Positions 14,653 to 30,536 of a DNA stretch of 64,000 nucleotides are shown in pieces. Both the position numbers and the translations under genes were made by a program. The first letter of the stretch is position 1. The number at the start of each line of letters is the position of its first letter. Origin of the DNA: an uncultured Bdellovibrionales bacterium (GTDB taxonomy: Bacteria > Patescibacteriota > Minisyncoccia > Moranbacterales > UBA1568); contig CAYTED010000004.1 in the NCBI GenBank assembly GCA_964436855.1, forward strand, positions 67,627-131,626, written 5' to 3'. A model generated the notes under the pieces. The model worked only from the letters and a program-made list of their open reading frames with translations. It was not told the origin of the DNA and did no database searches.

Positions 14653-14659
14653 ATCGATT

Positions 14660-17103: not shown

Positions 17104-19593
17104 CTACGCTTCCCTGGCAATCCCCGTCCGCTCCATAATTTCACGATTGACGATATCGGCATCGCGACCAAAACGGAGTCGCGAGAGTTCCTTTAGGGCA
17201 TTCGCGATTTCCTGATTGCCGTTTGTCGGCGCGTAGGTTTTCATATTGAACGGCTTTGTGAGCTCGTTATTCATCAGAAGTCGCGCAAAACAGTTTCGAT
17301 TATCCACATTCACCAAATCCTTCGCCGTAAAGACCGGCCCGAATTGCTTCTCCAAAAACTCGCCGTCTTCGGGACCAACACGAAATGCAATCATTGAACC
17401 GACGTTCCCGAACACCGCTTTCGAAATCTCTTCTTTGAGTTGGGCGATAAATTGATGCGCGATCACAAGCACCAAACGATACTTCCGCGCTTCGGAGAGA
17501 ATCTGCGCGATCGAATTCGTCGTCACATTTTGAAACTCATCCATATAGAGATAGAAATCCTTCCGATCCGCCTCGGGCGTATCGACACGGGAAAGCGCCG
17601 CCATAAGAATCTTCCCGACAATCACCATTCCGAGAAGTCGCGCATTAATCTCACCGATTTTTCCTTTCGAAAGATTCACGAGAATGATTTTCCCGTTATC
17701 CATCGCTTCACGGAAATTAATCGTGCTTTCCTGTTGCGCGATAATCGGCCGCATCAAGTCATTTGAAATAAAAGAAGTGAGTTTCGAGGTAATATACGGC
17801 ACCATATTGGCAAGCGCCGCCTCGCCCCCCGCCTTCTCCGCTTCTTTCGTCCAAAAATCATACACGACCGGATTTTTGCATTTTGACAATTTATACCGAC
17901 GAAAATCTTCGTCCGCGAGCACTTTCGAGATTTCCATCAGGGTCGATCCGCTCTCCGGATCCTCCATAATAAGAAGCATCGCATTCCGCATATACTGCTC
18001 AAACATCGGGCCGCCGGTCGCCTTCAAATCATACAACTGATCAAAAATGCCGATCATTTCGTTAATAACGAATGTTTTTTGTTCCGGATGCGCCGCATCG
18101 AATTCCATCATATTCATTCCGATTGGCCGTTCAATATCCGACGGATCAAAGAGAACCACATCTTCGGCACGCTCTTTCGGAATCGCCGTCAAAATATCTT
18201 CAATCGCATCGCCATGCGGATCGATAAAACAAAATCCTTTGCCATTCCGCGCATCCTGCTTCGCCATTTCCTGCAAAAAAACGGACTTTCCGACACCGGT
18301 CTGACCGATCACATACATATGACGTCTTCGATCCGTATCGGTAATGCGAACAGCCGTCTCCGTACCGCGATAATCATTGTATCCGAGTTTGATTCCTTCT
18401 GTCGGAATATTGACCGGCGGCGGCGCGGCACCGGCCTTCAACCATTTGATTTTCGGCGTCTCCACCATCGATGTTGGCACATGAAACACGCTCGCCACTT
18501 CTTCAGTCGAGAGAATCATCGCATGTTCCTCATCGAAATTCCGGAAAATATAATCAAACGCCGATTGTTTCCGTTTCGCGCGCTTGCGAACCCGAAACGA
18601 ATTCACTTCCGGATTTTCAAATTGCGCGAATGCATTTTCGATATGTGCGAGAATCTCGTCGGCGCGCTCGATTGTTCCCGCCGATGTAACCAAACGAATA
18701 TTGACCTTAAACGCCTGTTTCGAAACCTTCGCATCAATCTGTTTCACAAGCTCCTGTTCTTCCGGTGTAAGCGATACCGGCGTTTCGTCTTTCTTGGCGG
18801 ATCCGATTTCTTTCCCCGGAATCATGATTTCGGCAAGCCCCTGACCAACACCCTTCCCAACCGATTGAAGTACCGAACTCCCTTGAGCGTCTTTGAGACG
18901 TTTTCCTCCCTGCATTTTTTGAGCGATATCGCGACCTTTTGAACGCCATCCGCTCCCCGCGGGCGCAAGAACAATCTGAATCGCCGCGCCTTCGTCGGTT
19001 GAATTCAATTTTGAAAGCGCATTCGTCACTTCCGACAGCGGATCGACATTGAGCGTTCGGTAAGTCTTAATGGGAAGCGCATACGATTTTGACAGCTCGA
19101 GAACCGAAAAGGCGGTCGCGCTTCCCGGCGTAAAAATCGTATAGTCCGTTACCTTTTCAACAACCGCGTCGGGGAAAAATCCGTGCAATTGCTTCTCGAT
19201 CGACTCGCGAAATTTCTTAGGAACGGCAAGATAGAAAAAAATTTCCTCTTTGCCGGACGGATTTGCGATCTCGAAAATAATATTCGGCGTCTCATAAAAC
19301 CACGACCGCCACCCGAGCTTTCGTTTCATCGTGGCAAGCGTTCCGAGAAATTGTTCCATAGCCGCCACTTCTTCTTTCCATTTTTCCGCACCCGGCTGCG
19401 TATTCGTATCATCCCGCTTATCGCTTTTCGCGACACGGATCACCTCAAGATCCATCGCGATCGACCGACTCACCTGAATTCGAAATCGAAAAAAACTCCG
19501 GACTATGAGAAAAATCCCGGAACAAAACGTCAACACTCCGAAGAGGAGCGTTATCGGAACGAGAATAATGTTTGGATCGAATCCTCCTGACAT
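17104..19593 (-). CDS. TraG/TraD/VirD4-family type IV secretion coupling protein-like ATPase (FtsK/HerA superfamily)
   Basis: N-terminal TM helix. Walker A YVIGQTGVGKS, IDPHGD, Walker B FYLYMDEFQNV, and RKYRLVLVIAHQFIAQL (T4CP family Q-x-x-Q-L motif). Strong SD (GGAGGA) before the ATG at 19591-19593. Confidence 0.6.
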   Translation of the reverse strand: MSGGFDPNIILVPITLLFGVLTFCSGIFLIVRSFFRFRIQVSRSIAMDLEVIRVAKSDKRDDTNTQPGAEKWKEEVAAMEQFLGTLATMKRKLGWRSWFYETPNIIFEIANPSGKEEIFFYLAVPKKFRESIEKQLHGFFPDAVVEKVTDYTIFTPGSATAFSVLELSKSYALPIKTYRTLNVDPLSEVTNALSKLNSTDEGAAIQIVLAPAGSGWRSKGRDIAQKMQGGKRLKDAQGSSVLQSVGKGVGQGLAEIMIPGKEIGSAKKDETPVSLTPEEQELVKQIDAKVSKQAFKVNIRLVTSAGTIERADEILAHIENAFAQFENPEVNSFRVRKRAKRKQSAFDYIFRNFDEEHAMILSTEEVASVFHVPTSMVETPKIKWLKAGAAPPPVNIPTEGIKLGYNDYRGTETAVRITDTDRRRHMYVIGQTGVGKSVFLQEMAKQDARNGKGFCFIDPHGDAIEDILTAIPKERAEDVVLFDPSDIERPIGMNMMEFDAAHPEQKTFVINEMIGIFDQLYDLKATGGPMFEQYMRNAMLLIMEDPESGSTLMEISKVLADEDFRRYKLSKCKNPVVYDFWTKEAEKAGGEAALANMVPYITSKLTSFISNDLMRPIIAQQESTINFREAMDNGKIILVNLSKGKIGEINARLLGMVIVGKILMAALSRVDTPEADRKDFYLYMDEFQNVTTNSIAQILSEARKYRLVLVIAHQFIAQLKEEISKAVFGNVGSMIAFRVGPEDGEFLEKQFGPVFTAKDLVNVDNRNCFARLLMNNELTKPFNMKTYAPTNGNQEIANALKELSRLRFGRDADIVNREIMERTGIAREA

Positions 19594-19726: not shown

Positions 19727-20164
19727 CTACTCTTCCTGAATCATTCCCTTCGCCTTCAGCGCCTCATAAAATTTCTCCGCGAGCTCATCGTGCATTCGAT
19801 CCAAAACATAAAAATCATTTAATTTCCGTGCGACATTCACGGCATGCGCGATACCTTTTACCGTCGCAATCTGCACGAGCTCATTCACCTGACTTTCCGC
19901 ATCCGTCATCCCGGCAACGCTCTGCGCGTCACTCGCAATCGCCGCCGTATCGTCTGACTGCTGCGACCCGGCGCCACCGACGCGAGAGAGAATGTTCGAG
20001 AAGTGGAGCTCCGCCTTCTCGGATTTCTTTTCCTGTTCGGGAGAAGTTTCGGTCGGCATCGCACCGTCCATATCCTGTTTTTCTTTAGATACTTCAGCCG
20101 ACACTTCACCCGACTGCGCTCCCTCCGGATTCTTCTCATCAAAAAAAATAATCTCTTCAGCCAT
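19727..20164 (-). CDS. Hypothetical acidic protein
   Basis: ORF track 19727..20191. No recognisable domain. Co-directional with the VirD4-like gene. Confidence 0.35.
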   Translation of the reverse strand: MAEEIIFFDEKNPEGAQSGEVSAEVSKEKQDMDGAMPTETSPEQEKKSEKAELHFSNILSRVGGAGSQQSDDTAAIASDAQSVAGMTDAESQVNELVQIATVKGIAHAVNVARKLNDFYVLDRMHDELAEKFYEALKAKGMIQEE

Positions 20165-20221: not shown

Positions 20222-20536
20222 CTAGATCGCCACATCCTTCTTCATCTCCTCCTTAAAATCCGCTACGATCTTCTCAATCATCGCCTCATAATCCGGAATT
20301 TTCGACTCAAAATACCGCTTCACCTCGTCTTCGCTCGCCCCATTGTCGACCATTTTCTCATATTCCACAACTCCGTCCTCTCCAAGTCGATCAAAGGTAT
20401 CAACCATAATCCTCTTAATGAGTACCTCCCCCATTTTCCCGATAAGCTCAAGCTGCTTTTCTTCCGGAAGCGATGCGAGTCCCATTTCTTCCACAAGATT
20501 TTTAAACATTGCCTGATAATCCGCTGGTGTTGTCAT
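20222..20536 (-). CDS. Hypothetical small acidic protein (104 aa)
   Basis: Clean ORF in the same operon-like run. No recognisable domain. Confidence 0.4.
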   Translation of the reverse strand: MTTPADYQAMFKNLVEEMGLASLPEEKQLELIGKMGEVLIKRIMVDTFDRLGEDGVVEYEKMVDNGASEDEVKRYFESKIPDYEAMIEKIVADFKEEMKKDVAI

Positions 20537-20562: not shown

Positions 20563-23500
20563 TTATCGTGTCGTGGTAAAGAGTCCCGAGATACCAATCC
20601 GTTGACCCTGCTGAACGCTTGGGGCGATATGCTTGAGGTAATCCCCGACCGTCGCATTTCTGTGTCCGTTATAAAATTCAACCAAGCTCGGAATTTTCTT
20701 GTCACTGGAAAAGTCCACAAAATTCTTCAATTGATCGGCATTGAGTCCGGTAATATAACCCGAAATATTGCCAGCCTGAAGCAATTTCACGTCTCGCGCA
20801 ATATTGGAGAGGCTTTGATCTAAAAGTTTTTTCTGAATTTCAGAATTCGTAAGAGATACAATATTCTCATTTTCCGGCGTACGAAGAAGATCCCTTGACC
20901 AATCCTCGACGCGCGGCCGATATTTCACCACGTCAAGATTAGACTGCAATTCCGAGATCTGCGCGGACGCGGTATCAAGCTCTCCGCGAAGCGCTTCCTC
21001 CGCTGAATGATCAATACTCGGAGATGGTTCCGGAATCGCAATAGGGATTGAGTCGGGAGGAACTTCAGTCGATGACGGTACCCCCGAGATCCCGCGTCCA
21101 TGCACGGCTTGCCCCGTCACCCCCGAACCTTGCCCGAGAATTTCTTCGTCGATAACCTTGTCGGTCAAACGCTCACCCGGATGCGCTTTTATCCACTCGG
21201 CGATTTTCGCATTATTCTCGGCAATACTTTTCGTCGTCGCGTCCGAAATCTTTTCCGCACCGGAAACCGCTTTTTCGATATCCGCCGCCGAAAATGCCTT
21301 ATCGAGATTGATTGTTTCTCCCACACGAAGAGCATCAATATCCTTACTCCCAAATCCAAGGTCTTTTAATTTTTCCGGCGAAAATGTTTTCAGCTGATTC
21401 TTAAGCGTATTGATCGCATGCGTCTGTCGTTCCGGATCAAGATTGGCAAACCTCTCGTTCTGAATGGCAAGATGTTTCTCGAGAATTTTCCAGGTATTGT
21501 CTCCTTTTGAAACTTCAAAAGACCCAAAATTCCCGCCAGAAGAAACGGATGGGACGGCTTCTCCTGAAGAAGATGTGGCTCCCGCATCAGCGAAAACATT
21601 CTTCGTATCAGCTGTTGGTGCTTTCATCGACGCACCCGGATCAGCACCACCCCCTCCAGGCGTATTCACTCTTCCGACAGACGGAGTTTTAGCACCAGCA
21701 CCCGTGTCTCCGGGCTGTGGTCCGGCGGGATAAGCTGGAGCGGTATCGCCCGAAAAAAACATCGAATCAAGTTTGTGAATCAATGCGCCACTCGCAAATC
21801 CTAATACACCACCAATGGTCAATGCTGCGATTTTTCGAGCGCGAAATCCAAACTTTCTCCGAGAAAGGTTTGTATCCGCTTCTCGAGTGGTTGCCCGCAA
21901 AAGCTCATCAAGTTTTGCAAGCTGCTCTTTGATATCCCCAGACCCTCTTACTATTTCTCCGGATTCCAGCACATCATTTTCAAGTCCCCTCTCTTGGAAA
22001 GACGTTGCGATTTTTTCAAACGCCGAATCTGCAGTTACAAAAGCCCCGGCCGTTAATGCGGCTCGCCGAACAAGTATCAATCCGGCGACCGCCGCAACAC
22101 CGCCGGTTGCAATGCTCGCTCCCGCAAGTGCAAGACCGATTGCTGCTTTTGTTTTCCAGTTCAGCTTGTTGTATGCCTTCCCGACATCTTCAAATAGTCC
22201 CAATGCCTTGGCAGGAATTCCCTCTCGTTTTGTTCTCGCATCGGTCCATGCCTTGTACAATTCAATCTTTGACTCGGCTCCAAAATATCGAAATTCGATT
22301 GCCATTTTCTCCCGTAACTCCTCTTCGGAATGATGTTCCGATTTCAAACGCTCAAGACGGGCATCGATCAGTTTATTTAATGTTTGCTGGTAATGTCCTT
22401 TATGAAACTGAATATCCTTGTCGGCATCTTTATTCTGGCTCCCGATATGGAGAATGGACTTGATCCGCGCCCACGCACTTGATTTTCGATACTCCGTTTC
22501 CGCGTACGCCTTGCGCGCTTCGGCAAGCTCGGCGGTCAGTCGAGTAATTTCGCCGTCAAGTTCGGAAACACCAGCCATATCCTTCGCACGCGCATCCATC
22601 TCCTCGACGCGTTCTTTGAAATCTTTCTTGTGCTTGTTTTCAAGCTCATCTTCCATTTCCTCTCGAGCCGCTTTCCTTTGATCTTCCGTAGGATTCAGAA
22701 CATAATTTCCGTTATTATCCTTAAAATACACCGCGCCATTCTTCACGAGTTCGGCATCCGAAAGTTTTCGCGAGGCCATAAGCGTCGCCATCTCTTCATC
22801 GGAATATTCTCGCCCCTTCACTTTCTTTTTCTTCTTGTCAAATTCCGCATTTTCTTTTTCAGCGGATTTTCGTAATTGTGCATTTTGTTCATCCGTAAGT
22901 TGTAGACGCAATCGATCATCTCCTTTCTTATCCTGCCTTGCTTCATCGGGAACATATTTCGCCCCACGGCGAATCAAATCCGCTTCTCCAAGTATCCTCT
23001 CTCCTCTTATCCGTGTCTCTTCATCTTCCACTGCATTCACTGGTTCGGGGGTTGCTGGACTCGGAGGAGTCGCGACTGGCGTGGATGGGATGGGTGGGAT
23101 CGGAGTCGGTTGGGAAGAAACTGGTGGCACAGGAGGCATTTGAGACGGTGTTGTTGGCTGCACGGAAGGCGTAGCCGAGGCCTGATTCGGAGCCTGTACG
23201 GCTGCCGGGCTTGAAGAAGGTGTGGCTTCTTTAAGAATCCATGCGCCCTGCATTTTTTTCACAAGTTCCTCAATATTAATAGGTTTTCCGCTTCCTTTTT
23301 TCCCACGAAAAAATACATCTCCTTCACGATAAAGATTCATTTTCGCACCCCCACTACTCACCAGAACAAAAACTTCTCCGTCAGCAACCTGTAAAAGACG
23401 CTCCCTGTGTTCAAGAGTTGCGTCCGGAGGAACCGCAGCAAAGTTCTCCATATCATTCTGCATGGCTACAAGATGTGCGGCAATACTTGTCAATCCAGAT

Positions 23501-23664
23501 GCATCGACATCCGGAATATTTTGTGGCGCGCCAGGATCAGGATTCGGGGGCATGGAGGCAGTAGCTGCAGGATTTTTACCAAGATCCAAATCCGGAAGAT
23601 TCGCCCGGGCAGCATCAGCAGCCGCACTGCTTGCTGCAAGCGCTTGCTGTAAAAGATCGTCCAT
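20563..23664 (-). CDS. Very large hypothetical protein (1034 aa) with Pro/Thr/Ser-rich linker, coiled coil, two TM helices and Gly-rich segments
   Basis: ORF track 20563..23727. ATG at 23664 (MDDLL) preceded by GGAGG. PTS-rich stretch TPSSSPAAVQAPNQASATPSVQPTTPSQMPPVPPVSSQPTPIPPIPSTPVATPPSPATPEP. TM helices AAIGLALAGASIATGGVAAVAGLILV and IAALTIGGVLGFASGALI. Confidence 0.5.
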   Translation of the reverse strand: MDDLLQQALAASSAAADAARANLPDLDLGKNPAATASMPPNPDPGAPQNIPDVDASGLTSIAAHLVAMQNDMENFAAVPPDATLEHRERLLQVADGEVFVLVSSGGAKMNLYREGDVFFRGKKGSGKPINIEELVKKMQGAWILKEATPSSSPAAVQAPNQASATPSVQPTTPSQMPPVPPVSSQPTPIPPIPSTPVATPPSPATPEPVNAVEDEETRIRGERILGEADLIRRGAKYVPDEARQDKKGDDRLRLQLTDEQNAQLRKSAEKENAEFDKKKKKVKGREYSDEEMATLMASRKLSDAELVKNGAVYFKDNNGNYVLNPTEDQRKAAREEMEDELENKHKKDFKERVEEMDARAKDMAGVSELDGEITRLTAELAEARKAYAETEYRKSSAWARIKSILHIGSQNKDADKDIQFHKGHYQQTLNKLIDARLERLKSEHHSEEELREKMAIEFRYFGAESKIELYKAWTDARTKREGIPAKALGLFEDVGKAYNKLNWKTKAAIGLALAGASIATGGVAAVAGLILVRRAALTAGAFVTADSAFEKIATSFQERGLENDVLESGEIVRGSGDIKEQLAKLDELLRATTREADTNLSRRKFGFRARKIAALTIGGVLGFASGALIHKLDSMFFSGDTAPAYPAGPQPGDTGAGAKTPSVGRVNTPGGGGADPGASMKAPTADTKNVFADAGATSSSGEAVPSVSSGGNFGSFEVSKGDNTWKILEKHLAIQNERFANLDPERQTHAINTLKNQLKTFSPEKLKDLGFGSKDIDALRVGETINLDKAFSAADIEKAVSGAEKISDATTKSIAENNAKIAEWIKAHPGERLTDKVIDEEILGQGSGVTGQAVHGRGISGVPSSTEVPPDSIPIAIPEPSPSIDHSAEEALRGELDTASAQISELQSNLDVVKYRPRVEDWSRDLLRTPENENIVSLTNSEIQKKLLDQSLSNIARDVKLLQAGNISGYITGLNADQLKNFVDFSSDKKIPSLVEFYNGHRNATVGDYLKHIAPSVQQGQRIGISGLFTTTR

Positions 23665-23701: not shown

Positions 23702-25360
23702 TTATTTTGGTTCCTCATTATCAACAATGATCCCCTCTCCCTCTATCACCACCCCAGCCTCTTCATCACCAATACCCCCTTCAGTATCAGAAGCTGTATC
23801 ATTTTCTTGCATATATTTTTTGATCATCTCCCTCACCAGCTGGTGAATTTTCGGGAGCACCGTGTGAGCATCAACATACCCTGCCCACATTGAAACTGTC
23901 TTTTCCGCCTGCTCACCAATATGTTGTGAGATATTCTTTGCAGCATAAGGGGTATTGTTGAGCACACTCACAACCTCAAGTCCACTTGATTCGAGAGACT
24001 TACAAAGTGCTTCCCATGCTTTTTCGAGAACGACCATCGTATTCTCTACTACTTGTTTTCGAATTTGCTCCATTGAAACCAGACCGCGAGAACCCTCTGG
24101 TTGACCTTGTTCGATATTTGCTTGTACGGATCCTTCCCCGGCGCTTGCTACCGATGAAGCTACTGGCGTTGCCTCGCCATCACCACGAGCATCTTCATTC
24201 GCTGCCTTCTTAAAAATCTCCCCCAGCTCCGCTTGAAATTCAGCCGTAACAAGTTTTCCTCTCCCAAATTGAGGCGCCCGACTCTTCGATCGATCCTGCT
24301 TGAATCTTTTGCGAACTCCCTCTAAAATCGGTCGGAATTCCCTACGAAGATCACGGTTGCATTGATCAATCATCCTCTGAATTCCGGATTTTTTATAAAA
24401 GTCAAAGAAATATCTCTCAAATTTTTCCTTCTGTATTTTTTGTTCCTCTGCGCTCCCCTGATTTTTTGTTGTAGTAAACGACTCCTGTATCGGTTTTAAA
24501 ATAATCATCATCTTCTTTGCTTGCTCGGAAAGTCTCTCGCGATCGGAGTCTTTCACAGAAGAAAATTCTCCTTTCGATGCTGCGACAATATCCTCAAATT
24601 TCCTCGGGAGAAACATCCGGAGTTTCATTTTCTTCTCTATAAATTCCTCTCTCTTGTCGCGATTCCCTTGAGCTGGCACCCGAAGGGTTACTTCCTCTAC
24701 CCAACCAATATCATACAGTTTCGGCTTTTCTTTCCCTGCTTCTTCCCGAAGACTCTTCGAGAGATCCCCCTTCATATTTTCGAGAGCAAAACTAAGAATT
24801 CGAACAAGGTATGCTCGCTCGATATCTCTTTCGGCTATAAAATATGATTTTCCGGCGAGCCTTTTCTCGTCTTGTGCAAGATTTCGAAACGCTTGTGCGA
24901 GGCTATTTTCTCCTCGAAGAGAAGGGAGATACAATACTTCATCGGTGGTCGAATGGGGAAAAACTTGGATGAGAGGCACGGAAGCATCAGAGAGGCCCCG
25001 TACATCTTGTTTGACTCTGTCGACTGCTTGTTTGAGTTGTGCCCCGAATGCTCGGAGCTTTTCGGATTCATGCTCTTCGAAGTATATATCAAACCTCGGT
25101 CTTGGCTTTTTTGCTTGATCCTTTTTCGCTGGATTTTCCGGTTCCTTTTGTGGAGATTGCAAGGCAGCATTTTCCGTAGATGGAGAATCTTGCAAAGAAA
25201 AATCTGCAGCCGCCGAAAGAAGCTCTTCGGCATTCGGTTCGTGTGCGTCACCACCTTCAACCGTTTTCGGAGATTTCGGAGCTCGCCGCGATCTTGGTTT
25301 TTTTTCTTGTTCTGGATTTGCCGGTGCTGGTATTGGCATCCCCGGTTCTCTTTTTGGCAT
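23702..25360 (-). CDS. Hypothetical Lys/Glu-rich coiled-coil protein (about 550 aa)
   Basis: ORF track 23702..25399, start uncertain. No recognisable domain. Co-directional with neighbours. Confidence 0.45.
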   Translation of the reverse strand: MPKREPGMPIPAPANPEQEKKPRSRRAPKSPKTVEGGDAHEPNAEELLSAAADFSLQDSPSTENAALQSPQKEPENPAKKDQAKKPRPRFDIYFEEHESEKLRAFGAQLKQAVDRVKQDVRGLSDASVPLIQVFPHSTTDEVLYLPSLRGENSLAQAFRNLAQDEKRLAGKSYFIAERDIERAYLVRILSFALENMKGDLSKSLREEAGKEKPKLYDIGWVEEVTLRVPAQGNRDKREEFIEKKMKLRMFLPRKFEDIVAASKGEFSSVKDSDRERLSEQAKKMMIILKPIQESFTTTKNQGSAEEQKIQKEKFERYFFDFYKKSGIQRMIDQCNRDLRREFRPILEGVRKRFKQDRSKSRAPQFGRGKLVTAEFQAELGEIFKKAANEDARGDGEATPVASSVASAGEGSVQANIEQGQPEGSRGLVSMEQIRKQVVENTMVVLEKAWEALCKSLESSGLEVVSVLNNTPYAAKNISQHIGEQAEKTVSMWAGYVDAHTVLPKIHQLVREMIKKYMQENDTASDTEGGIGDEEAGVVIEGEGIIVDNEEPK

Positions 25361-25413
25361 ATGTTTTCTTAATGATATCAAAAAGGAAGCGACTCGCAAA
25401 ACATTTTTTTAGG

Positions 25414-26742
25414 CTACTTCTTCGAATCCCGTTTTTCGGAAAGCCATTGCAACGAAAGTACCTTCATCTTTTCCAAAGAAATTCCTTCTTTGCTCCCAAG
25501 AAGTTCAAATATCTTCCGTGAAAACGTTTCCGCGGTTTTCGAAAGTGACTCTTCCGAGAGCAAAACCTTCGCAAGTTTTAATTCGTCGCCTTGAACTCTA
25601 AGGAGAAAAAACTTCCAGAATTGCTCAAAAGCATCCTGAATAGCCTGGGGAATCTTTTTTTCTTCCTCTTCAATCTTCGGGATAACTTCCGCAGCAGGAA
25701 AAACTTCTTCTTTCTTGCTGGTGAGAGGTTTCGTCGAACCCTCTCCGGATATTACCGATTGAATCCTTTCATAATCAGCAATACTTAATCCATTCCGCTC
25801 TGAAACAAAACCCCCTTCCGGAAAATGACTCGCATCCGCAACAACTGTTCTCTGTCGCATGTTGAGTTGCTTTTTTCCTGAATTCCCATTCATTCTCTCG
25901 TTTCGTTCCGCATCCCTCTTCGCCTTTCGCTCGAGACGTTCGCGGCGCTCTTTTTCTTCTCGCCCACGGAGAGAATCGCGGTGCACATACGTTCGTCCTT
26001 CGTATACCGCTATTTCGGCGAGTTTCTTGTAGGAAACAAATTCTTCCGGAAGATGTTGGAAAAAATCCCTCATCGCTTGAAGATCAGAAGAAGTGTCTTT
26101 TCCTGCGGAAATTTTTCGCTCATACGCTTCGACAAGTTCCCGTAACACCTGTTTTTCCATATGAAAATGGAGTTGCAGTGCCCAATTGTCTTCTTCGGAA
26201 TTCCCCTCTCTTCCAAGGGAAGAAACTTCCACCCGCTCCATATCGAGAAGTAAGCCTCGTCCGTACACCTCAAACTCCCGTTCCGCTTTGGAACGATTCC
26301 GTTCTTTTTTACCGCTTATCTTGGCACTCAAGCCCGATCGCTCAAGAATTTCCCCGACCTTTTCCGCTGGTCGGACCGTAATATTCTTCTTTCCTTTTTC
26401 AAAAAATCCGACTTCCCGTTCGCCGTTTACTCCATCGGAAACATACTTAACCTCGATATCCGGCTCATCTCCGCGCTGAAGGACATTAGGATCAGACGCA
26501 TATGTGTCGCCCGGATAAATGTCAGGTTGTTTTTTTCTTTCTTTTGAACCGTTATTTGAGGCAACGCTCAAAGAAACATTCGAAGAAGATTCGACGCCAT
26601 CTTGCTTCTTTTTTGGTTGTCTCGGAATTTTTATTCCTGGTGGAATGTTCTCCCACTCTCCTGAAGATACTTTCTTTTTGACAGCGCCCGAAAGATCTTT
26701 CACTTCGAATTGTTTGAAAATACCCGCTTCATTCATTGCCAT
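25414..26742 (-). CDS. Hypothetical charged coiled-coil protein (442 aa)
   Basis: First gene of the minus-strand run. No recognisable domain. Confidence 0.45.
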   Translation of the reverse strand: MAMNEAGIFKQFEVKDLSGAVKKKVSSGEWENIPPGIKIPRQPKKKQDGVESSSNVSLSVASNNGSKERKKQPDIYPGDTYASDPNVLQRGDEPDIEVKYVSDGVNGEREVGFFEKGKKNITVRPAEKVGEILERSGLSAKISGKKERNRSKAEREFEVYGRGLLLDMERVEVSSLGREGNSEEDNWALQLHFHMEKQVLRELVEAYERKISAGKDTSSDLQAMRDFFQHLPEEFVSYKKLAEIAVYEGRTYVHRDSLRGREEKERRERLERKAKRDAERNERMNGNSGKKQLNMRQRTVVADASHFPEGGFVSERNGLSIADYERIQSVISGEGSTKPLTSKKEEVFPAAEVIPKIEEEEKKIPQAIQDAFEQFWKFFLLRVQGDELKLAKVLLSEESLSKTAETFSRKIFELLGSKEGISLEKMKVLSLQWLSEKRDSKK

Positions 26743-26813: not shown

Positions 26814-28406
26814 ATGCAAAAATTCTGGTACGATCTTCTCTCTCCAAAGCGATTCGTTTTCTTTCTTGCGCTCATTCTCGTTCTCGCATTTTTCCTCCGC
26901 ACCTGGAATATCGACGACATTCCGGGCGGACTCTACCCCGACGAGGCGATGAACGGTACGAACGCAATCGAAGCAAACGAAACAGGGCACTACAAACTTT
27001 TTTACGAAGACAATTTCGGTCGCGAGGGACTCTTTATTAATCTGCAGGCGCTCGCGATCAAATATCTCGGTGTAAACATTCCCGCGCTCAAACTCTGGTC
27101 GGCGATTTTCGGTACACTTGCCGCGCTCGGCATCGGACTTCTCGCGCTCGAACTCTTCGGCCGACGTTCTGCCGCGCTCGCCGCCGCCTTTATCACCACC
27201 ACCTCATACTGGGCGATCAATTTTTCCCGAATGGGATTCCGCGCGATCATGGTAACCGCACTCCTTTCATTTTCCTTTTATTTTTTCTTCCGCGGACTCC
27301 GTACGGAACGCAAGTGTTCTTTTTTCTTCGCCGGAGCACTTCTTGGTCTCGGTCTTCATACCTATATCGCCTTCCGACTCGCGCCGGGCATACTCATCCT
27401 CCTTCTTCCCTTTCTCCTCCTCTCTTACGAAAATTTTCTCAAACGATTTTGGAAACACGCGTTCGTATTCGTCTTTGGCGCCTTTCTCACCGCCGCGCCG
27501 ATGTTTTATGATTTCTCTCAAAATCCACATCACTTCGCTTCTCGCTCCGACGATGTCTCGATTTTCTCCGAAAAGGTGAACAAGGGCGACCTTTGGGGAA
27601 CATTCGGAAAAACCTTCGGCCTCTCGCTCATCAAATACAATTTTGTGGGCGATCAAAACTTCCGACACAACTATCCGCCCTATCCGATCCTCGACCCGAT
27701 CATCGGCACGTTTTTCCTCGCCGGCTTTCTCTGGATTCTTGTCGACACCATCAAACTCTTCGGTCTCCGACTCCGAAACAAAGAACGCCACCCGAAACTT
27801 GCCATCAATGCCTTTCTTTTCATCTCTTTCTTTGTCATGCTTGCGCCGGAGTACCTTACCAATGAAGGACTTCCGCACGCTCTCCGCGCGATCGGCACGC
27901 AAGTCTCGGTGTTTCTCTTTGCTTCTTTTCCGATCGCATTTCTCTTCAATCGCGCGCTGCACGCGCAAGCGGTCGGGCGATCCCTTTTTCTCTCGCTTTT
28001 CTTCCTGACCCTCATAACAAGCGGCCTCTGGAATGGTGTAAAATATTTTTATTTCTTCGCAAATCATCCGAAACAATACGAATCATTCGCCGCGAGATTC
28101 CGCAGTATGTCGCTCTATCTGAATTCCCTTCCGGAAAATACGCATAAATATTTGTACGCGAATACCGGATACATCGACCTCCAGGCCATCCTCTTTCAAA
28201 CTTCCGGTCGCGTAAAAAACTTTCAAGTCCTGCAGCCCGACACGAAAATCGAACGCCCGGCCGTTATCCTACAAATGCGCTATGATGACCGCGTCTTCGA
28301 AAACATCAAACAGCGCACTCCGAATGCAATTGTACGACAAGCCGACCCGCTGCAAAAACCCGGAACAAACTTTCTCGTCATCGAAATTCCGGACGAGAAA
28401 AAATAG
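26814..28406 (+). CDS. GT-C fold glycosyltransferase, PMT/ArnT (GT39/GT83) family
   Basis: About 12 TM helices, a first-loop GLYPDEAMNGTNA (DE motif), and overall PMT_2 / ArnT-like architecture. An extended -10 promoter (TGaTATAAT) lies upstream at about 26778-26790. Confidence 0.65.
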   Translation: MQKFWYDLLSPKRFVFFLALILVLAFFLRTWNIDDIPGGLYPDEAMNGTNAIEANETGHYKLFYEDNFGREGLFINLQALAIKYLGVNIPALKLWSAIFGTLAALGIGLLALELFGRRSAALAAAFITTTSYWAINFSRMGFRAIMVTALLSFSFYFFFRGLRTERKCSFFFAGALLGLGLHTYIAFRLAPGILILLLPFLLLSYENFLKRFWKHAFVFVFGAFLTAAPMFYDFSQNPHHFASRSDDVSIFSEKVNKGDLWGTFGKTFGLSLIKYNFVGDQNFRHNYPPYPILDPIIGTFFLAGFLWILVDTIKLFGLRLRNKERHPKLAINAFLFISFFVMLAPEYLTNEGLPHALRAIGTQVSVFLFASFPIAFLFNRALHAQAVGRSLFLSLFFLTLITSGLWNGVKYFYFFANHPKQYESFAARFRSMSLYLNSLPENTHKYLYANTGYIDLQAILFQTSGRVKNFQVLQPDTKIERPAVILQMRYDDRVFENIKQRTPNAIVRQADPLQKPGTNFLVIEIPDEKK

Positions 28407-28550: not shown

Positions 28551-30536
28551 ATGCGCCACTTCCTCGACCCGATTAAGAAAAATGCCGCGCTTGCGGTGTT
28601 CGCGCTCCTCGCCGTTTTTGTTCTCCTTTCGCTTACTGGCGCACGAAACGATTCCGCCACATTCGATGAGCGTGCTCATATTCCCGCTGCCTATAGCTAT
28701 GTCCGCTACAGCGATATGCGACTCAATCCGGAGCATCCGCCACTTTTAAAAGACTTAGCCGGTCTTCCGCTTCTTCTCCTTGATTTGAAATTCCCCATTG
28801 AAAGCGAACTTTGGACGAAAGGCGTGAACGAACAATGGAATCTCGGAACACTCTTTCTCTATCGAATCGGGAACAATCCAAACGACATTCTCTTTTTCTC
28901 CCGACTCCCCATTATTCTCATCGGTCTTCTTCTCGGATACTTTCTGTATCGGTGGGGTAAAGAACTCTCCGGAACGCTCACTGGTATTTTTGCGGTCGCG
29001 CTCTTTGCGCTTGATCCGAATATGATCGCGCACGGTCATTATGTAACAACCGATCTCGGCATCGCCGCGGCGATTTTCATCGCCACGTATTTTTTCGTCC
29101 GATTCCTTAAAAATCCCTCACCGAAAAATATCATCGTCGCCGGTATCGCGCTCTCGCTCGCCCAACTCACCAAATTTTCCGCCGTTCTCCTCTTTCCGCT
29201 TTTCGGACTCATTCTCTTTGTGTACGCAATCGTCAGATACGAACACGACGACAAAACGCCGACCTTGAAAGAAAAATTGATATGCGTACGACAATGGATC
29301 GCCCGATATATCCAAATTGTTATCATCGCTTTCATCGGCATTTATATCGTCTACGCGGCGAATACCTGGAATATGCCGGCTGAAAAAACGATTGAAAACG
29401 CCGCCATTGTGTTCTCCGGTCCCGCGCCCGCAAAAGTCTTCGCCAGAGAAACAATCGGAGCGATGTCTTCCGTTCCGGTCCTGAAGCCACTCTCGCATTA
29501 CTTTCTCGGCGTCTTTATGGTTTTCTCTCGCGTCGCTGGCGGGAACACGTTTTACTTCGACAACCCATTCTTTCATGACACCTCGCGCCCGCTTGTCGCA
29601 AATATCGCCTCTCCGTGGTATTTTCCGGCGGTTTTCCTGATGAAAGAGGCCCTCCCGTTTCTTTTTCTCTTGTTTCTTTCCGGTTGTTACGCGTTCTACC
29701 GAATCATCCGAGCCTTCGCGGAGAAAAAAACACTCGCCGCGCGCGCTCACCTCATCGCCGAAAGTTTCCGCACACGCATCGCCCAGTGGACCATACTCGC
29801 ATTCGTCGCACTCTATACCTACCTCTCCATTACCGGAAACTTAAATATCGGTCTCCGGCACCTTTTCCCCATTCTCCCTCTCCTCTATCTTCTTGTCGCG
29901 AAAACCGTTGCCGACTTCATCACGCGACGCATCGAACACGAAAATCGTCTCACTGGCTATCGTTCCAACCTTCACCGCATCCTCTTCACTACGCTCGGGT
30001 TTGGCTTTTTCTCGTGGATGGTGTTTATCCCAGTTGCAGCATCGCCAAACTTCCTCTCGTATTTCAATGAAACCGTTGGATCGAAAAATGGGTATTGGTA
30101 CGTGACAGATTCCAATTACGACTGGGGACAAGATCTCAAGCGAGTGAAAGAATTCGTCGAACGGTACAACGCCTGCGTATCACAGGCACGATCAATGTCA
30201 GACTGTCTTGGTCGCAGATTTTCCGCAACCCCCGCGCTTAATTCAATCGGACGATCTCCTATCGATACAATCCGTGTCGATTATTTCGGCGGCTCCGAAT
30301 CCGATATCGCGGTCGGCGCATATCTGAAGCCTTGGAATGCCGGTCTTGATCCGGAAGTTGGATGGTATGCTATATCGGCCACTTTCTATCAGGAAAGTAT
30401 TTACAAAAACATCCTCCCGACCGAAAAAACCTATCGCGACTGGATCCTCCCATTCAAACCGGTCGCTCGCGCCGGAGAGTCCATTCTCATCTTCCATATT
30501 TCAGAAGACGATCTTCAGATGATACGAGAGCGATAG
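28551..30536 (+). CDS. GT-C fold glycosyltransferase, PMT/ArnT family (paralog)
   Basis: Multi-TM protein, DERAHIPAAYSY first-loop motif, and a large C-terminal extracytoplasmic domain. Tandem with the previous gene. Confidence 0.65.
   Translation: MRHFLDPIKKNAALAVFALLAVFVLLSLTGARNDSATFDERAHIPAAYSYVRYSDMRLNPEHPPLLKDLAGLPLLLLDLKFPIESELWTKGVNEQWNLGTLFLYRIGNNPNDILFFSRLPIILIGLLLGYFLYRWGKELSGTLTGIFAVALFALDPNMIAHGHYVTTDLGIAAAIFIATYFFVRFLKNPSPKNIIVAGIALSLAQLTKFSAVLLFPLFGLILFVYAIVRYEHDDKTPTLKEKLICVRQWIARYIQIVIIAFIGIYIVYAANTWNMPAEKTIENAAIVFSGPAPAKVFARETIGAMSSVPVLKPLSHYFLGVFMVFSRVAGGNTFYFDNPFFHDTSRPLVANIASPWYFPAVFLMKEALPFLFLLFLSGCYAFYRIIRAFAEKKTLAARAHLIAESFRTRIAQWTILAFVALYTYLSITGNLNIGLRHLFPILPLLYLLVAKTVADFITRRIEHENRLTGYRSNLHRILFTTLGFGFFSWMVFIPVAASPNFLSYFNETVGSKNGYWYVTDSNYDWGQDLKRVKEFVERYNACVSQARSMSDCLGRRFSATPALNSIGRSPIDTIRVDYFGGSESDIAVGAYLKPWNAGLDPEVGWYAISATFYQESIYKNILPTEKTYRDWILPFKPVARAGESILIFHISEDDLQMIRER

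What the first reader, a model, noticed from the sequence alone, without database searches (positions are those of the whole stretch)
20563..23664. 1034-aa protein with a 60-residue Pro/Thr/Ser linker next to two PMT-family GT-C enzymes: candidate O-glycosylated surface protein
The protein has a globular N-terminal domain followed by TPSSSPAAVQAPNQASATPSVQPTTPSQMPPVPPVSSQPTPIPPIPSTPVATPPSPATPEP. Next come long Lys/Glu coiled coils, two predicted TM helices and Gly-rich tracts. Ser/Thr/Pro-rich linkers are the classical substrates of protein O-mannosyltransferases. Two PMT/ArnT-family GT-C genes lie about 3 kb away (26814-30536). A Dpm1-like GT2, a polyprenyl synthase and a WecA-like transferase are also in the window.
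Basis: inference. Interest (0 to 1): 0.55.

Follow-up and report, generated by a model that had tools for sequence, protein, structure and literature searches.

The report
Mosaic membrane protein beside orphan VirD4-like ATPase
The Pro/Thr/Ser-rich protein is real, but its linker is predicted to lie inside the cell, so it is an unlikely sugar-attachment site; the gene belongs to a large, undescribed, fast-evolving family of membrane proteins of Patescibacteria that always sits in one conserved gene cluster with an orphan secretion-type ATPase and two glycosyltransferases.

Summary
The ORF exists on the minus strand (20563-23664, 1033 aa). The quoted linker is aa 148-208, with 39 of 61 residues Pro, Thr or Ser. 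The two GT-C genes, the GT2, the polyprenyl synthase and the WecA-like gene are also there.

The glycoprotein reading fails on topology. There is no signal peptide, and the linker precedes both hydrophobic segments by about 300 residues. Family-wide charge bias places the N-terminal half in the cytoplasm. Strongly P/T/S-rich N-side spacers occur in only 2-10 of 101 relatives.

The protein belongs to an uncharacterised family with 650 representatives at 50% identity and no Pfam domain. The conserved core is a helical segment, a Gly-rich hydrophobic hairpin, a TM helix, a low-complexity stalk and a VxKGDxxWKI module. The N-terminal region and the C-terminal module are variable and exchanged by recombination.

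In 22 related loci (Moranbacteria and relatives) the gene heads the operon target-DUF5663-small acidic protein-VirD4-like ATPase. The GT-C pair lies divergently upstream in all 16 loci that reach that far.

Most likely it is an envelope-spanning partner of the orphan coupling-protein-like ATPase, with an exposed variable tip. If the GT-C enzymes act on it, the external stalk is the plausible target. The function is inferred, not shown.

The parts
20563..23664 (-). Target ORF, 1033 aa: a member of an uncharacterised, fast-evolving Patescibacteria membrane-protein family
   Evidence: ORF and translation. Identical public gene call. No Pfam, NCBIfam or PHROG hit. The family has 650 representatives at E<=1e-3.
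23221..23412 (-). Small beta-rich N-terminal domain (aa ~85-148), predicted cytoplasmic
   Evidence: AF2 pLDDT 66-81. The subdomain recurs in the N-terminal regions of P0067, P0107, P0048 and P0032. No Pfam hit at E<=1.
23041..23223 (-).
   Evidence: 39 of 61 residues are P, T or S. Disordered in AF2. It lies N-terminal of all hydrophobic segments, and there is no signal peptide. Not conserved in the family.
22150..23040 (-). Lys/Glu-rich helical region (aa 209-505). Its last ~140 residues (LRxAYAxxDY ... YNKL) are the start of the conserved family core.
   Evidence: Composition. Long helices in AF2. The conserved core begins near aa 365. aa 280-360 is 96-98% identical in DNA to L001, above the local background.
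22030..22149 (-). Hydrophobic region 1 (aa 506-545): a Gly/Ala-rich stretch with a central Gly-Gly and Lys/Arg on both flanks; a likely helical hairpin or re-entrant membrane anchor
   Evidence: family median 31 uncharged residues; flanks carry 4.4 and 1.8 K+R. AF2 breaks the helix at aa 520-523 (low confidence).
21832..22029 (-). Charged helical loop (aa 546-611) ending in an Arg/Lys cluster (RRKFGFRARK), predicted cytoplasmic
   Evidence: The N-flank of TM2 has a family mean of 5.6 K+R against 1.07 on the C-flank.
21769..21831 (-). TM helix 2 (aa 612-632), predicted to run from inside to outside
21523..21768 (-). Low-complexity Ala/Gly/Pro/Ser/Thr stalk (aa 633-714), predicted extracytoplasmic; the more plausible glycosylation target if there is one
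   Evidence: Composition: 21% S+T, 11% P, 35% A+G. Present across the family, median 82 aa. Disordered in AF2.
21139..21522 (-). Conserved alpha/beta module (aa 715-842) with the signature VxKGDxxWKI ... LxxGxxIxL; it resembles LysM in sequence motif only
   Evidence: pLDDT 92-97. Most conserved part of the family. No LysM Pfam hit. No structural relative in the PDB or BFVD.
21007..21138 (-). Second Pro/Ser-rich disordered linker (aa 843-886)
   Evidence: pLDDT <50. Composition: 22% P, 22% S+T.
20566..21006 (-). Swappable C-terminal helical module (aa 887-1033) ending in GLFTTTR, one of several module types in the family
   Evidence: pLDDT 71-96. It is closer to the modules of distant genomes (E 1e-23) than to that of the sister genome (E 7e-5). 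DNA identity to L001 is 35-51% against 82-87% for neighbouring genes. Module type does not track genome relatedness.
20222..20536 (-). DUF5663 protein (104 aa), immediately downstream; a constant operon partner
   Evidence: PF18908 at E 2e-8. Follows the family gene in every locus that extends past the gene's 3' end.
19727..20164 (-). Small acidic protein (145 aa; the ORF list gives 154 aa from an upstream TTG) with a conserved C-terminal helical domain; a constant operon partner
   Evidence: Gene call of 145 aa. No family or PDB hit.
17104..19593 (-). Orphan VirD4/TraD/TrwB-like ATPase (829 aa) with an N-terminal membrane anchor; the last gene of the operon and the best conserved
   Evidence: TrwB_AAD_bind and TraG-D_C above the Pfam cut-offs. 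TraD/VirD4-type NCBIfam hits below their cut-offs. TrwB Walker A stretch in the PDB. 71-79% identity across Moranbacteria loci. No VirB4 in the window.
23702..25399 (-). Lineage-specific charged soluble protein (565-aa ORF; 552 aa in the public gene call) in the variable slot upstream of the target
   Evidence: No TM segment or signal peptide. A homologue only in sister locus L001. Other loci carry 0-2 unrelated ORFs here.
25414..26742 (-). Lineage-specific charged soluble protein (442 aa) in the variable slot
26814..28406 (+). GT-C glycosyltransferase (530 aa, PMT_2), transcribed divergently from the operon; 71 bp separate its start from the start of the first minus-strand gene
   Evidence: PF13231 at 33.2 bits against a cut-off of 26.1. 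Nine or more TM segments. Conserved neighbour in 16 of 16 loci.
28551..30536 (+). GT-C glycosyltransferase (661 aa, PMT and PMT_2) with an FDE motif after TM1
   Evidence: PF02366 at 44.1 bits against a cut-off of 22.7, and PF13231 at 48.9 bits. N-terminal sequence. Conserved neighbour.
14660..16993 (+). g777: a conserved convergent neighbour. A bitopic membrane protein with a 470-aa cytoplasmic part, one TM helix, a P/T/S-rich juxtamembrane stretch outside, and a C-terminal domain with weak NHL-repeat similarity.
   Evidence: TM at aa 471-489 and sequence. Conserved after VirD4 in the Moranbacteria loci. NHL hit at E 0.003.

Best explanation
The ORF encodes a modular membrane protein of a large, undescribed family restricted, as far as sampled, to Moranbacteria and related Patescibacteria.

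Predicted topology. The N-terminal half is cytoplasmic: a small beta domain, the disordered Pro/Thr/Ser spacer and a Lys/Glu-rich helical region. A Gly-rich hydrophobic hairpin and one TM helix anchor the protein in the membrane. The C-terminal ~400 residues are outside: a low-complexity stalk, a conserved alpha/beta module, a second linker and an exchangeable helical tip module.

Genomic setting. It is the first conserved gene of the operon family gene-DUF5663-small acidic protein-orphan VirD4-like ATPase. This operon sits at one fixed chromosomal locus, between a divergent pair of PMT-type GT-C glycosyltransferases and a convergent bitopic membrane protein.

Proposed mechanism (inferred). 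The conserved juxtamembrane helical core docks the membrane-anchored VirD4-like hexameric ATPase and its two small partners on the inside. The external modules reach into or through the wall. The tip module, and also the cytoplasmic N-terminal region, are diversified by recombination, as expected for parts that meet a changing partner such as a host cell surface, a phage or variable cargo.

The P/T/S tract is then a flexible cytoplasmic spacer, not a glycosylation site. If the adjacent GT-C enzymes act on this protein, they would act on the external stalk.

Shown: the anatomy, the family, the operon and synteny, the mosaic evolution, and the absence of known domains or folds. Inferred: the topology, the interaction with the ATPase and the function.
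For: Family and core:
- The exhaustive profile search finds 650 representatives, with matches over profile positions ~365-1035.
- 113 of the 151 fetched family sequences (the query protein plus the 150 listed hits) carry the full core.
- No Pfam domain in 48 members, apart from one PP2C and one GemA hit.

Topology:
- No signal peptide, and a median of 475 residues before hydrophobic region 1.
- K+R in the flanks: 4.4 and 1.8 around region 1, and 5.6 (N) against 1.07 (C) around TM2. This gives 11.8 positive charges inside and 1.1 outside for the N-in / hairpin / C-out model, against 5.5 inside and 7.4 outside for the N-in / C-in model.
- The PP2C domain of P0100 lies on the N-side.

Operon and synteny:
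- The same order occurs in L001-L012 and L015-L022 wherever the contig allows, with gaps of 26-133 bp in the window.
- The block is retained in outgroups with VirD4 at ~37% identity and different outer flanks: aminoacyl-tRNA synthetases and Ddl instead of GT1 and HolB.

Mosaic evolution.

ATPase identity. Published context: Patescibacteria carry 5,713 VirD4-like homologues, only 148 of them near virB4, and their role is unknown (PMC12102498).

C-terminal modules fold confidently (mean pLDDT 81).
Against: - No experiment and no dedicated topology predictor was available. Hydrophobic region 1 (26 residues here) could be a single TM helix, which would put the C-terminal half in the cytoplasm.
- The VxKGDxxWKI module is not a detectable LysM domain, so there is no independent sign that it is extracellular or binds the wall.
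- No interaction with the ATPase was tested.
- Conserved adjacency may partly reflect general synteny in this lineage: FtsQ is equally constant, and HolB and GT1 are constant within Moranbacteria.
- No T4SS channel genes (VirB4, VirB6) are in the window.
Confidence: 0.4

Rival explanations
1. One reading: a surface protein whose N-terminal Pro/Thr/Ser linker (aa 148-208) is O-mannosylated by the neighbouring PMT-type GT-C enzymes, using a polyprenyl-phosphate sugar made by the GT2.
For: - The linker composition is classic for PMT acceptors.
- The GT-C pair is a conserved neighbour.
- A GT2 with weak similarity to polyprenyl-phosphate hexose synthases, a polyprenyl synthase and a WecA-like enzyme are in the window.
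Against: - No signal peptide.
- The linker precedes all hydrophobic segments, and the charge bias puts it in the cytoplasm.
- A 500-residue, highly charged N-terminal half would have to be exported without a signal.
- The linker is absent from most relatives although the GT-C pair is always present.
- A PP2C domain lies on the same side in a relative.
Confidence: 0.05
2. Revised glycoprotein model: the GT-C pair glycosylates the extracytoplasmic low-complexity stalk after TM2 (aa 633-714) and/or the second linker (aa 843-886), or the P/T/S-rich external juxtamembrane stretch of g777. This would stiffen or protect the stalk that carries the external modules. It is compatible with the best explanation.
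For: - A stalk is present across the family: median 82 aa, about 15% S+T, 9% P and 24% A+G.
- The GT-C pair is divergently adjacent in 16 of 16 loci. In five loci it is directly adjacent to the family gene, and the pairing is kept in outgroups with rearranged flanks.
- The 661-aa enzyme passes the Pfam PMT threshold.
- g777 has PPIKTTPEKVAPVSSSVLPP right after its TM helix.
Against: - Adjacency is not discriminating, because FtsQ is an equally constant neighbour.
- No locus lacks the GT-C pair, so co-variation cannot be tested.
- GT-C/PMT_2 enzymes also build lipid-linked or wall glycans.
- The stalk is only moderately S/T-rich.
- The external location of the stalk is itself a prediction.
Confidence: 0.25
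3. Cell-division or envelope-growth scaffold. The protein would be a bitopic or polytopic division-site protein, in architecture like MapZ, or like EzrA or DivIVA/GpsB partners. It would work with FtsQ and an FtsK/HerA-superfamily ATPase that moves DNA or remodels the septum.
For: - A POTRA-domain FtsQ gene flanks the GT-C pair in every locus that reaches that far. In outgroup L012 it is preceded by Ddl, as in a dcw cluster.
- MreB, MurA and a Mur ligase are nearby.
- The DUF5663 profile gives marginal hits to GpsB, E 0.025.
- The architecture of a cytoplasmic disordered or coiled part, a TM helix, an external linker and an external domain resembles MapZ (own knowledge).
Against: - Core division proteins are not usually mosaics with swapped domains.
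- The GpsB hit is not significant.
- The ATPase scores with T4CP models rather than FtsK models.
- Proximity to FtsQ may be plain synteny.
Confidence: 0.12
4. Translocated substrate. The protein is itself cargo of the VirD4-like ATPase, recognised through its conserved C-terminal tail, exported through a T4SS encoded elsewhere, and inserted by its glycine-zipper helices into the membrane of the host bacterium.
For: - It is encoded next to a coupling-protein-like ATPase and two small acidic, chaperone-like proteins.
- The extreme C-termini are conserved within subfamilies: GLYTTT, IKGFYKP, KAA, RFPQSI.
- Diversification at both ends is typical of effectors.
- The hydrophobic helices are Gly-rich.
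Against: - No T4SS channel genes are in the window.
- The published Tn-seq result is that the T4CP homologue is not essential for epibiotic growth in Ca. Southlakia (PMC12102498).
- Stable TM segments with a positive-inside bias fit a resident membrane protein.
- There is no direct evidence.
Confidence: 0.08
5. Relic of a mobile element or prophage, for example a tape-measure-like protein with coiled coils, central hydrophobic segments and a wall-binding domain, next to a phage-type ATPase.
For: - The architecture loosely recalls tape-measure proteins (own knowledge).
- The ATPase matches phrog_5156 over its full length and has relatives in large Bacillus phages.
Against: - The target has no PHROG, phage or viral-contig match.
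- The cluster sits at one fixed chromosomal position among housekeeping genes in all loci.
- There are no integrase, capsid or tail genes, and no composition shift.
Confidence: 0.03

Closest known systems
Protein O-mannosylation by PMT/GT39 enzymes (eukaryotic Pmt1/2; actinobacterial Pmt acting on Ala/Pro/Ser/Thr-rich secreted proteins such as Apa)
   Same: Two GT-C enzymes with PMT_2 and PMT Pfam matches are encoded next to the gene. The protein carries disordered Pro/Ser/Thr/Ala-rich tracts. A polyprenyl synthase and a GT2 are in the window.
   Different: - The flagged tract is predicted cytoplasmic, whereas PMT acceptors are modified on the outer face during or after Sec export (established knowledge).
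- The GT-C proteins have no sequence relative among solved structures.
- The GT2 is far below every curated cut-off.
- No glycan evidence exists, and I found no literature on this in CPR bacteria.
Type IV secretion coupling proteins (VirD4/TrwB/TraD) and the 'orphan' T4CP homologues of Patescibacteria (Quinonero-Coronel et al. 2025, PMC12102498)
   Same: - The last gene of the operon passes the Pfam cut-offs for TrwB_AAD_bind and TraG-D_C and has an N-terminal membrane anchor.
- Like most Patescibacteria T4CP homologues, it is not near virB4.
   Different: - The partners found here (the family protein, DUF5663, the small acidic protein, g777) have no counterpart in described T4SSs.
- There is no relaxase, VirB4 or VirB6 in the window.
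- About 370 residues of unknown nature lie between the anchor and the P-loop.
- Full-length relatives occur in Bacillus jumbo and SPO1-like phages.
LysM peptidoglycan-binding domain
   Same: A sequence motif resembles the LysM beta-alpha-alpha-beta signature: VxKGDxxWxI ... LxxGxxIxL, with a strand at each end.
   Different: - No LysM Pfam match even at E<=1.
- About 45 extra residues of helices are inserted between the two strands, and three more helices follow the second strand.
- A confident model finds no LysM structure in the PDB.
- It is not a demonstrable member.
MapZ/LocZ-type bitopic division-site proteins of streptococci (architecture only)
   Same: A cytoplasmic disordered and helical N-terminal part, a membrane anchor, a flexible external linker and a folded external C-terminal domain; the gene lies near division and wall genes (own knowledge).
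   Different: No sequence or fold similarity. There is a much longer cytoplasmic part, an extra hydrophobic hairpin, mosaic evolution, and operon linkage to an ATPase.
Phage tape-measure proteins (architecture only)
   Same: Long helical regions, central Gly-rich hydrophobic segments and C-terminal accessory modules.
   Different: No PHROG, phage or BFVD match. The position is fixed in the chromosome with no phage genes around it.

Membership tests
PMT/GT39 acceptor protein (O-mannosylated Ser/Thr-rich region) | The acceptor region is exposed on the extracytoplasmic face (signal peptide, or location after an in-to-out TM helix) | tested here: not met
   There is no signal peptide, and the linker at aa 148-208 precedes both hydrophobic segments. 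The family-wide positive-inside analysis places it inside. This is a prediction, not an experiment.
PMT/GT39 acceptor protein (O-mannosylated Ser/Thr-rich region) | A PMT-family GT-C enzyme is encoded in the genome | tested here: met
   PF02366 at 44.1 bits (cut-off 22.7), and PF13231 at 48.9 and 33.2 bits (cut-off 26.1). It is a conserved neighbour in 16 of 16 loci.
PMT/GT39 acceptor protein (O-mannosylated Ser/Thr-rich region) | A polyprenyl-phosphate-mannose synthase (Ppm1/Dpm1-type GT2) supplies the donor | tested here: inconclusive
   The GT2 at 51581-52357 hits dolichyl-phosphate hexose transferase, PpgS, ArnC-like and many other GT2 models at 27-50 bits. All are far below their curated cut-offs.
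PMT/GT39 acceptor protein (O-mannosylated Ser/Thr-rich region) | Glycan attached to Ser/Thr of the protein | not testable with these tools
   Needs glycoproteomics or a lectin blot.
PMT/GT39 acceptor protein (O-mannosylated Ser/Thr-rich region) | The acceptor tract is conserved wherever the enzyme-protein pair is conserved | tested here: not met
   An N-side tract with at least 60% P/T/S occurs in 2 of 101 members, and one with at least 50% in 10 of 101. The GT-C pair is present in all loci.
LysM domain (PF01476) | Match to the LysM profile | tested here: not met
   No hit for the whole protein, or for aa 700-860 at E<=1.
LysM domain (PF01476) | Compact beta-alpha-alpha-beta fold superposable on solved LysM domains | tested here: not met
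   The model has pLDDT 92-97 in this module. Foldseek against the PDB returns 7 matches, all with E>2 and none a LysM. Foldseek is weak on ~45-residue domains, so a distant relationship is not excluded.
Type IV coupling protein (VirD4/TrwB/TraD), for the operon's ATPase | Match to T4CP-specific profiles | tested here: met
   PF10412 TrwB_AAD_bind at 31.4 bits (cut-off 20.5) and PF12696 TraG-D_C at 25.3 bits (cut-off 22). The NCBIfam TraD and VirD4 models hit only below their cut-offs. TrwB Walker A stretch at E 1.3e-4.
Type IV coupling protein (VirD4/TrwB/TraD), for the operon's ATPase | N-terminal membrane anchor followed by a cytoplasmic P-loop domain | tested here: met
   A hydrophobic segment at aa ~8-31 followed by an Arg-rich flank, with the P-loop region at aa ~419-470. 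Only one TM helix is predicted, where two is usual.
Type IV coupling protein (VirD4/TrwB/TraD), for the operon's ATPase | Encoded with a T4SS channel (VirB4, VirB6) or a relaxase | tested here: not met
   No such gene among the ORFs of at least 150 aa scanned across the window, or in the fetched loci. The rest of the genome was not available.
Phage tape-measure protein | Match to tape-measure profiles or phage homologues, in a tail-gene context | tested here: not met
   No PHROG hit, no tblastn hit in 50,697 phage records, none in the viral contigs, and a housekeeping context.
DUF5663 (PF18908), for the downstream gene | Match to the profile above its gathering score | tested here: met
   35 bits against a cut-off of 23.7. 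The precomputed PF18908 assignment is on the homologues too.

The most novel reading that the evidence does not exclude
The family protein, DUF5663, the small acidic protein, the orphan VirD4-like ATPase and g777, with a dedicated GT-C pair, form a previously unrecognised envelope-spanning apparatus specific to Patescibacteria. The ATPase powers it. The recombining external tip and the variable cytoplasmic region adapt it to different host cells or cargo. In the boldest version the glycine-zipper protein is itself delivered into the host membrane. This would give a function to the thousands of 'orphan' coupling-protein genes in this phylum.
Probability: 0.12. Interest if true: 0.85.

Novelty: new variant of a known kind. 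Interest (0 to 1): 0.45.

Why it matters
Patescibacteria genomes carry about two VirD4-like genes each, almost never next to a T4SS, and nobody knows what they do (PMC12102498). This work shows that one of them sits in a fixed, deeply conserved operon. Its lead gene is a very large, domain-less family with C-terminal modules that have no fold relative in the PDB or BFVD, and with recombination-driven diversification. That gives a concrete set of candidate partners to test.

It also corrects an attractive but wrong inference: a Ser/Thr/Pro tract next to PMT genes does not make a glycoprotein. It redirects the glycosylation question to the predicted external stalks. If the GT-C link is real, it would be, as far as my searches show, the first indication of PMT-type protein O-glycosylation in CPR bacteria.

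Tried and rejected
- Word-indexed homologue searches with the full protein, with a core-only profile and with DUF5663 returned only 3-4 proteins each. For the two target queries the 8000-candidate limit was reached, probably filled by low-complexity candidates. This closed the route to contexts of truly distant members.
It worked only with A1 and with a subfamily alignment.
- The full-length AF2 model was too poor for a fold search: mean pLDDT 46 and meaningless hits.
- The J-domain-like 'YHPDKNGD' motif in P0007 was dropped as evidence, because the Pfam scan of that protein gave no DnaJ hit.
- The LysM assignment was rejected.
- A prophage or tape-measure origin was rejected.
- Promoter and terminator scans were at chance level and say nothing about operon boundaries.
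- Tandem-repeat expansion as the origin of the linker was rejected.
- PDB sequence searches for the target, both GT-C proteins and the small acidic protein gave nothing significant. DUF5663 (GpsB) and g777 (NHL) gave only marginal hits, which I treat as leads only.
- 'Hypervariable far beyond its neighbours' was toned down. At deep divergence FtsQ (25-28%) is as divergent as the target (24-30%). The distinctive feature is the mosaic of near-identical and saturated blocks, together with module swapping.

Full report
OBSERVATION

The coordinates hold a real ORF, but on the minus strand. From the ATG at 23664 it encodes 1033 residues. The same start is used in the public gene call and in the 56%-identical homologue P0002.

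It has 21 Pro, 10 Ser and 8 Thr in 61 residues, against 18% P/T/S for the whole protein, binomial P = 6e-15. It is not produced by a DNA tandem repeat.

The rest of the description also holds:
- a small folded N-terminal domain (aa ~85-148);
- a long Lys/Glu-rich helical region;
- two hydrophobic segments (aa 507-532 and 612-630);
- Gly/Ala-rich low-complexity sequence after them.

The two neighbouring genes at 26814-28406 and 28551-30536 are GT-C enzymes that pass the Pfam thresholds for PMT_2, and the second also passes PMT. The WecA-like GT4 (fused to DUF192), a GT2 and a trans-polyprenyl diphosphate synthase are in the window. The GT2 matches polyprenyl-phosphate hexose synthases only far below their curated cut-offs.

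WHAT THE PROTEIN IS

It has no hit in Pfam, NCBIfam, PHROGs or PDB sequences. The word-indexed search found only two relatives. The exhaustive profile search found 650 cluster representatives at E<=1e-3 and 89 at E<=1e-30.

The matches cover profile positions ~365-1035, not the N-terminal third. Alignments define the following parts:
- a conserved core, starting with a helical segment (LRxAYAxxDY ... YNKL);
- a Gly/Ala-rich hydrophobic region with a central Gly-Gly;
- a charged helical loop that ends in an Arg/Lys cluster;
- a second hydrophobic helix;
- a low-complexity Ala/Gly/Pro/Ser/Thr stalk (median 82 residues);
- a strongly conserved module with the signature VxKGDxxWKI ... LxxGxxIxL;
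- a second Pro/Ser-rich linker;
- a C-terminal module that comes in several unrelated types, recognisable by their tails: GLYTTT, IKGFYKP..KAA, RFPQSI and others.

Forty-eight members scanned against Pfam gave nothing except one PP2C and one GemA hit.

A domain-level AlphaFold model of the last 336 residues, built on a 26-sequence alignment, is confident (mean pLDDT 81, with most blocks of the two folded modules above 90). It has no significant structural match in the PDB or in BFVD. The resemblance of the VxKGD module to LysM is therefore a sequence-motif resemblance only. The LysM profile does not match even at E<=1.

The N-terminus (MDDLLQQALAASSAAADAARANLPDLD...) has neither a positively charged n-region nor a hydrophobic core. 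The first hydrophobic segment begins about 300 residues after the linker.

I measured 101 family members:
- The part before hydrophobic region 1 has a median of 475 residues and no signal peptide.
- Region 1 is a median of 31 uncharged residues, with Lys/Arg on both flanks (4.4 and 1.8 per 15 residues).
- The second helix has 5.6 Lys/Arg on its N-flank, against 1.07 on its C-flank, which has 2.1 Asp/Glu.

The model 'N-terminus in, region 1 a hairpin with both ends in, loop in, helix 2 in-to-out, C-terminal modules out' puts 11.8 positive charges inside and 1.1 outside. The alternative 'N-in, C-in' puts 5.5 inside and 7.4 outside. An N-out model needs export of a ~500-residue charged domain with no signal.

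The low-confidence full-length model also breaks the helix at the Gly-Gly. The single enzyme domain found in the family's N-terminal regions is a PP2C phosphatase in P0100, at aa ~262 and far upstream of its hydrophobic region.

In every plausible topology the P/T/S linker is cytoplasmic. It is also not a family trait. At least 60% P/T/S over 40 residues on the N-side is reached by 2 of 101 members (the window protein and its sister), and at least 50% by 10 of 101.

GENOMIC CONTEXT

The gene lies in a tight minus-strand run:
- two lineage-specific soluble proteins (442 and 565 aa);
- the target;
- DUF5663 (104 aa);
- a small acidic protein (145 aa);
- an 829-aa ATPase with an N-terminal anchor that passes the Pfam thresholds for TrwB_AAD_bind and TraG-D_C.

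The gaps between these genes are 14-133 bp. The GT-C pair is transcribed divergently, 71 bp from the start of the run. A 777-aa bitopic membrane protein (g777) converges on the ATPase. There is no VirB4, VirB6 or relaxase in the window.

I fetched 22 related loci. They are mostly Candidatus Moranbacteria, plus a Portnoybacteria genome and other Patescibacteria.

Wherever the contig allows, the order is FtsQ | GT-C 661, GT-C 530 | 0-2 unrelated ORFs | family gene | DUF5663 | small acidic protein | VirD4-like ATPase | g777. The GT-C pair is present in 16 of 16 loci that reach that far.

Within Moranbacteria the whole ~30 kb region is syntenic (MreB-GT1-GT1-HolB-FtsQ ... MarR-like-RmuC-WecA). Adjacency there proves little.

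In three deep outgroups (L012, L015, L017) the ATPase, seen in L015 and L017, is ~37% identical and the GT-C proteins are 31-35% identical. The outer flank, visible in L012 and L017, is different: aminoacyl-tRNA synthetases, plus Ddl in L012, then FtsQ. The block from FtsQ to the ATPase is kept.

The first refutation criterion, 'no conserved neighbourhood', is therefore not met. The neighbourhood is conserved, with the caveat that FtsQ is conserved alongside it.

EVOLUTIONARY BEHAVIOUR

Identities to the window proteins in typical Moranbacteria loci:

| Protein | Identity to the window protein |
|---|---|
| VirD4-like ATPase | 71-79% |
| MarR-like | 63-75% |
| RmuC | 60-67% |
| GT-C | 46-65% |
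| DUF5663 | 38-54% |
| g777 | 32-42% |
| FtsQ | 25-28% |
| Target | 24-30%, over part of its length only |

Even the subfamily with only ~24% core identity to the window protein (cluster 12), the only non-GLYTTT-type subfamily I sampled, sits at this same locus. Much of the family's diversity may therefore be divergence of one orthologous gene.

The comparison with the sister genome L001 is the most telling. The neighbouring genes are 82-87% identical in DNA, with 60-78% identity at third positions of conserved codons. Inside the target:
- aa 280-360 is 96-98% identical, with third positions at 90-95%;
- aa 389-660 and aa 861-1033 are 35-57% identical, which is saturated.

The window's C-terminal module is closer to those of distant genomes (E 1e-23 to 1e-20) than to the sister's (E 7e-5).

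Across loci, the module type does not follow genome relatedness. L004 and L010 have ATPases 86% identical but unrelated C-terminal modules. L016 and L018 have ATPases 77% identical and share a module. The N-terminal 300 residues are usually unalignable even between close genomes.

This is a recombining mosaic. The membrane-proximal core is kept, and both ends are exchanged.

MOST LIKELY FUNCTION

Shown:
- a large new family;
- a fixed operon with DUF5663, a small acidic protein and an orphan VirD4-like ATPase;
- conserved divergent GT-C genes;
- mosaic evolution;
- C-terminal modules with no recognisable fold relative in the PDB or BFVD.

Inferred:
- The protein is a resident membrane protein. 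Its cytoplasmic helical core works with the membrane-anchored ATPase and the two small proteins, and its external modules extend into the wall.
- The variable tip, and the variable cytoplasmic region, meet a changing partner.
- The P/T/S tract is a flexible cytoplasmic spacer.

I put 0.4 on this package.

It fits the published observation that Patescibacteria have thousands of VirD4-like genes, almost never beside virB4, with unknown roles (PMC12102498). The ATPase family also has full-length relatives in large Bacillus phages. In phage G the relative lies next to a gene annotated VirB-like. This fits a translocation ATPase but does not say what is translocated.

RIVALS

- The original glycoprotein model (0.05) fails on topology and on conservation.
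- A revised model (0.25, compatible with the main one) has the GT-C pair glycosylating the predicted external stalks of this protein or of g777. It cannot be tested here, because no locus lacks the GT-C pair.
- A division or envelope-scaffold reading (0.12) rests on the FtsQ/Ddl neighbourhood and a non-significant GpsB hit for DUF5663.
- A translocated-substrate reading (0.08) is suggested by the subfamily-specific conserved C-terminal tails and by diversification at both ends, but it has no direct support.
- A prophage relic (0.03) is contradicted by the fixed syntenic position and by the lack of any phage match for the target.

COMPARISON WITH KNOWN SYSTEMS, AND NOVELTY

The nearest known frame is the T4SS coupling-protein family, for the ATPase only. 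The target itself belongs to no described family.

It works 'like' a bitopic envelope-spanning adaptor, with MapZ-type architecture or tape-measure-like modularity, but it is a member of none of these. I found no paper that mentions DUF5663, or PMT/GT39 enzymes in CPR bacteria.

I rate it a new variant of a known kind: an orphan T4CP module with unknown partners. The interest is moderate, because the function remains inferred.

Noticed in passing
window 20563-23664 compared with L001 10001-13060: The target is a recombination mosaic. aa 280-360 is 96-98% identical in DNA to the sister genome, above the 82-87% of neighbouring genes. aa 389-660 and 861-1033 are only 35-57% identical. The C-terminal module is closer to those of distant genomes than to the sister's.
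   Followed up: yes
window 14660-16993 (+): g777 is a conserved 777-aa bitopic membrane protein that converges on the ATPase. It has a 470-aa cytoplasmic part with no known domain, one TM helix, a P/T/S-rich stretch just outside the membrane (PPIKTTPEKVAPVSSSVLPP), and a C-terminal region with weak NHL-repeat (beta-propeller) similarity (E 0.003). It is a better-placed candidate GT-C substrate than the flagged linker.
   Followed up: partly
window 17104-19593 (-); L024 (Bacillus phage G) 5863-8340: The VirD4-like ATPase matches phrog_5156 over its full length. It has relatives at 22-24% identity and 82-89% coverage in 49 phage records, 48 of them phages of Bacillus and related Bacillales (CP-51, SP-10, phage G gp156). 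In phage G the gene follows gp155, which is annotated as VirB-like.
   Followed up: partly
window 20222-20536 (-): The DUF5663 profile gives marginal hits to the cell-cycle protein GpsB (E 0.025, three PDB entries). It is not significant, but it is worth noting because FtsQ (and Ddl in an outgroup) flank the cluster.
   Followed up: partly
window 10977-12404 (-): The WecA-like GT4 (Glycos_transf_4) is fused to a C-terminal DUF192 domain. The fusion gene is conserved at the same position in the related Moranbacteria loci.
   Followed up: no
window 23702-26742 (-); equivalent slot in L006, L008, L010, L011, L016-L020: The slot between the GT-C pair and the family gene holds 0-2 ORFs that appear unrelated between loci (no cross-matches to the window's two; sizes 269-808 aa). 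The window's two (442 and 565 aa, highly charged, no TM helix) have homologues only in the sister genome. This is a variable-cargo-like slot.
   Followed up: partly
window 30605-31354 (-) compared with L001 2406-3133: The 249-aa polytopic membrane protein next to the GT-C pair is split into two called genes (127 and 114 aa) in the sister genome L001. That suggests a frameshift or pseudogene there, or a sequencing error.
   Followed up: no
window 19621-19644: A palindromic hairpin followed by a T-rich run on both strands lies in the 133-bp gap between the small acidic protein gene and the ATPase gene. It could be an internal attenuator or terminator. The scan overall was at chance level.
   Followed up: no
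window 13930-14925 (-) and 14660-16993 (+): The ORF list gives a 331-aa MarR-like ORF that overlaps the start of g777 by ~265 nt. Only ~200 residues are conserved in relatives, so the real start is probably further downstream.
   Followed up: no
window 56397-62189 (+): Further envelope genes lie in a row: a LytR_cpsA_psr protein (490 aa), a 657-aa protein with lamin-tail and PKD domains, and a DUF4012 protein. These could be other surface or wall-glycopolymer components, and other candidate GT-C clients.
   Followed up: no
whole window: GC skew is negative in every 2-kb bin (-0.04 to -0.26; cumulative -5.0), with no switch. The window therefore lies within one replichore and shows no sign of an inserted island.
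   Followed up: no
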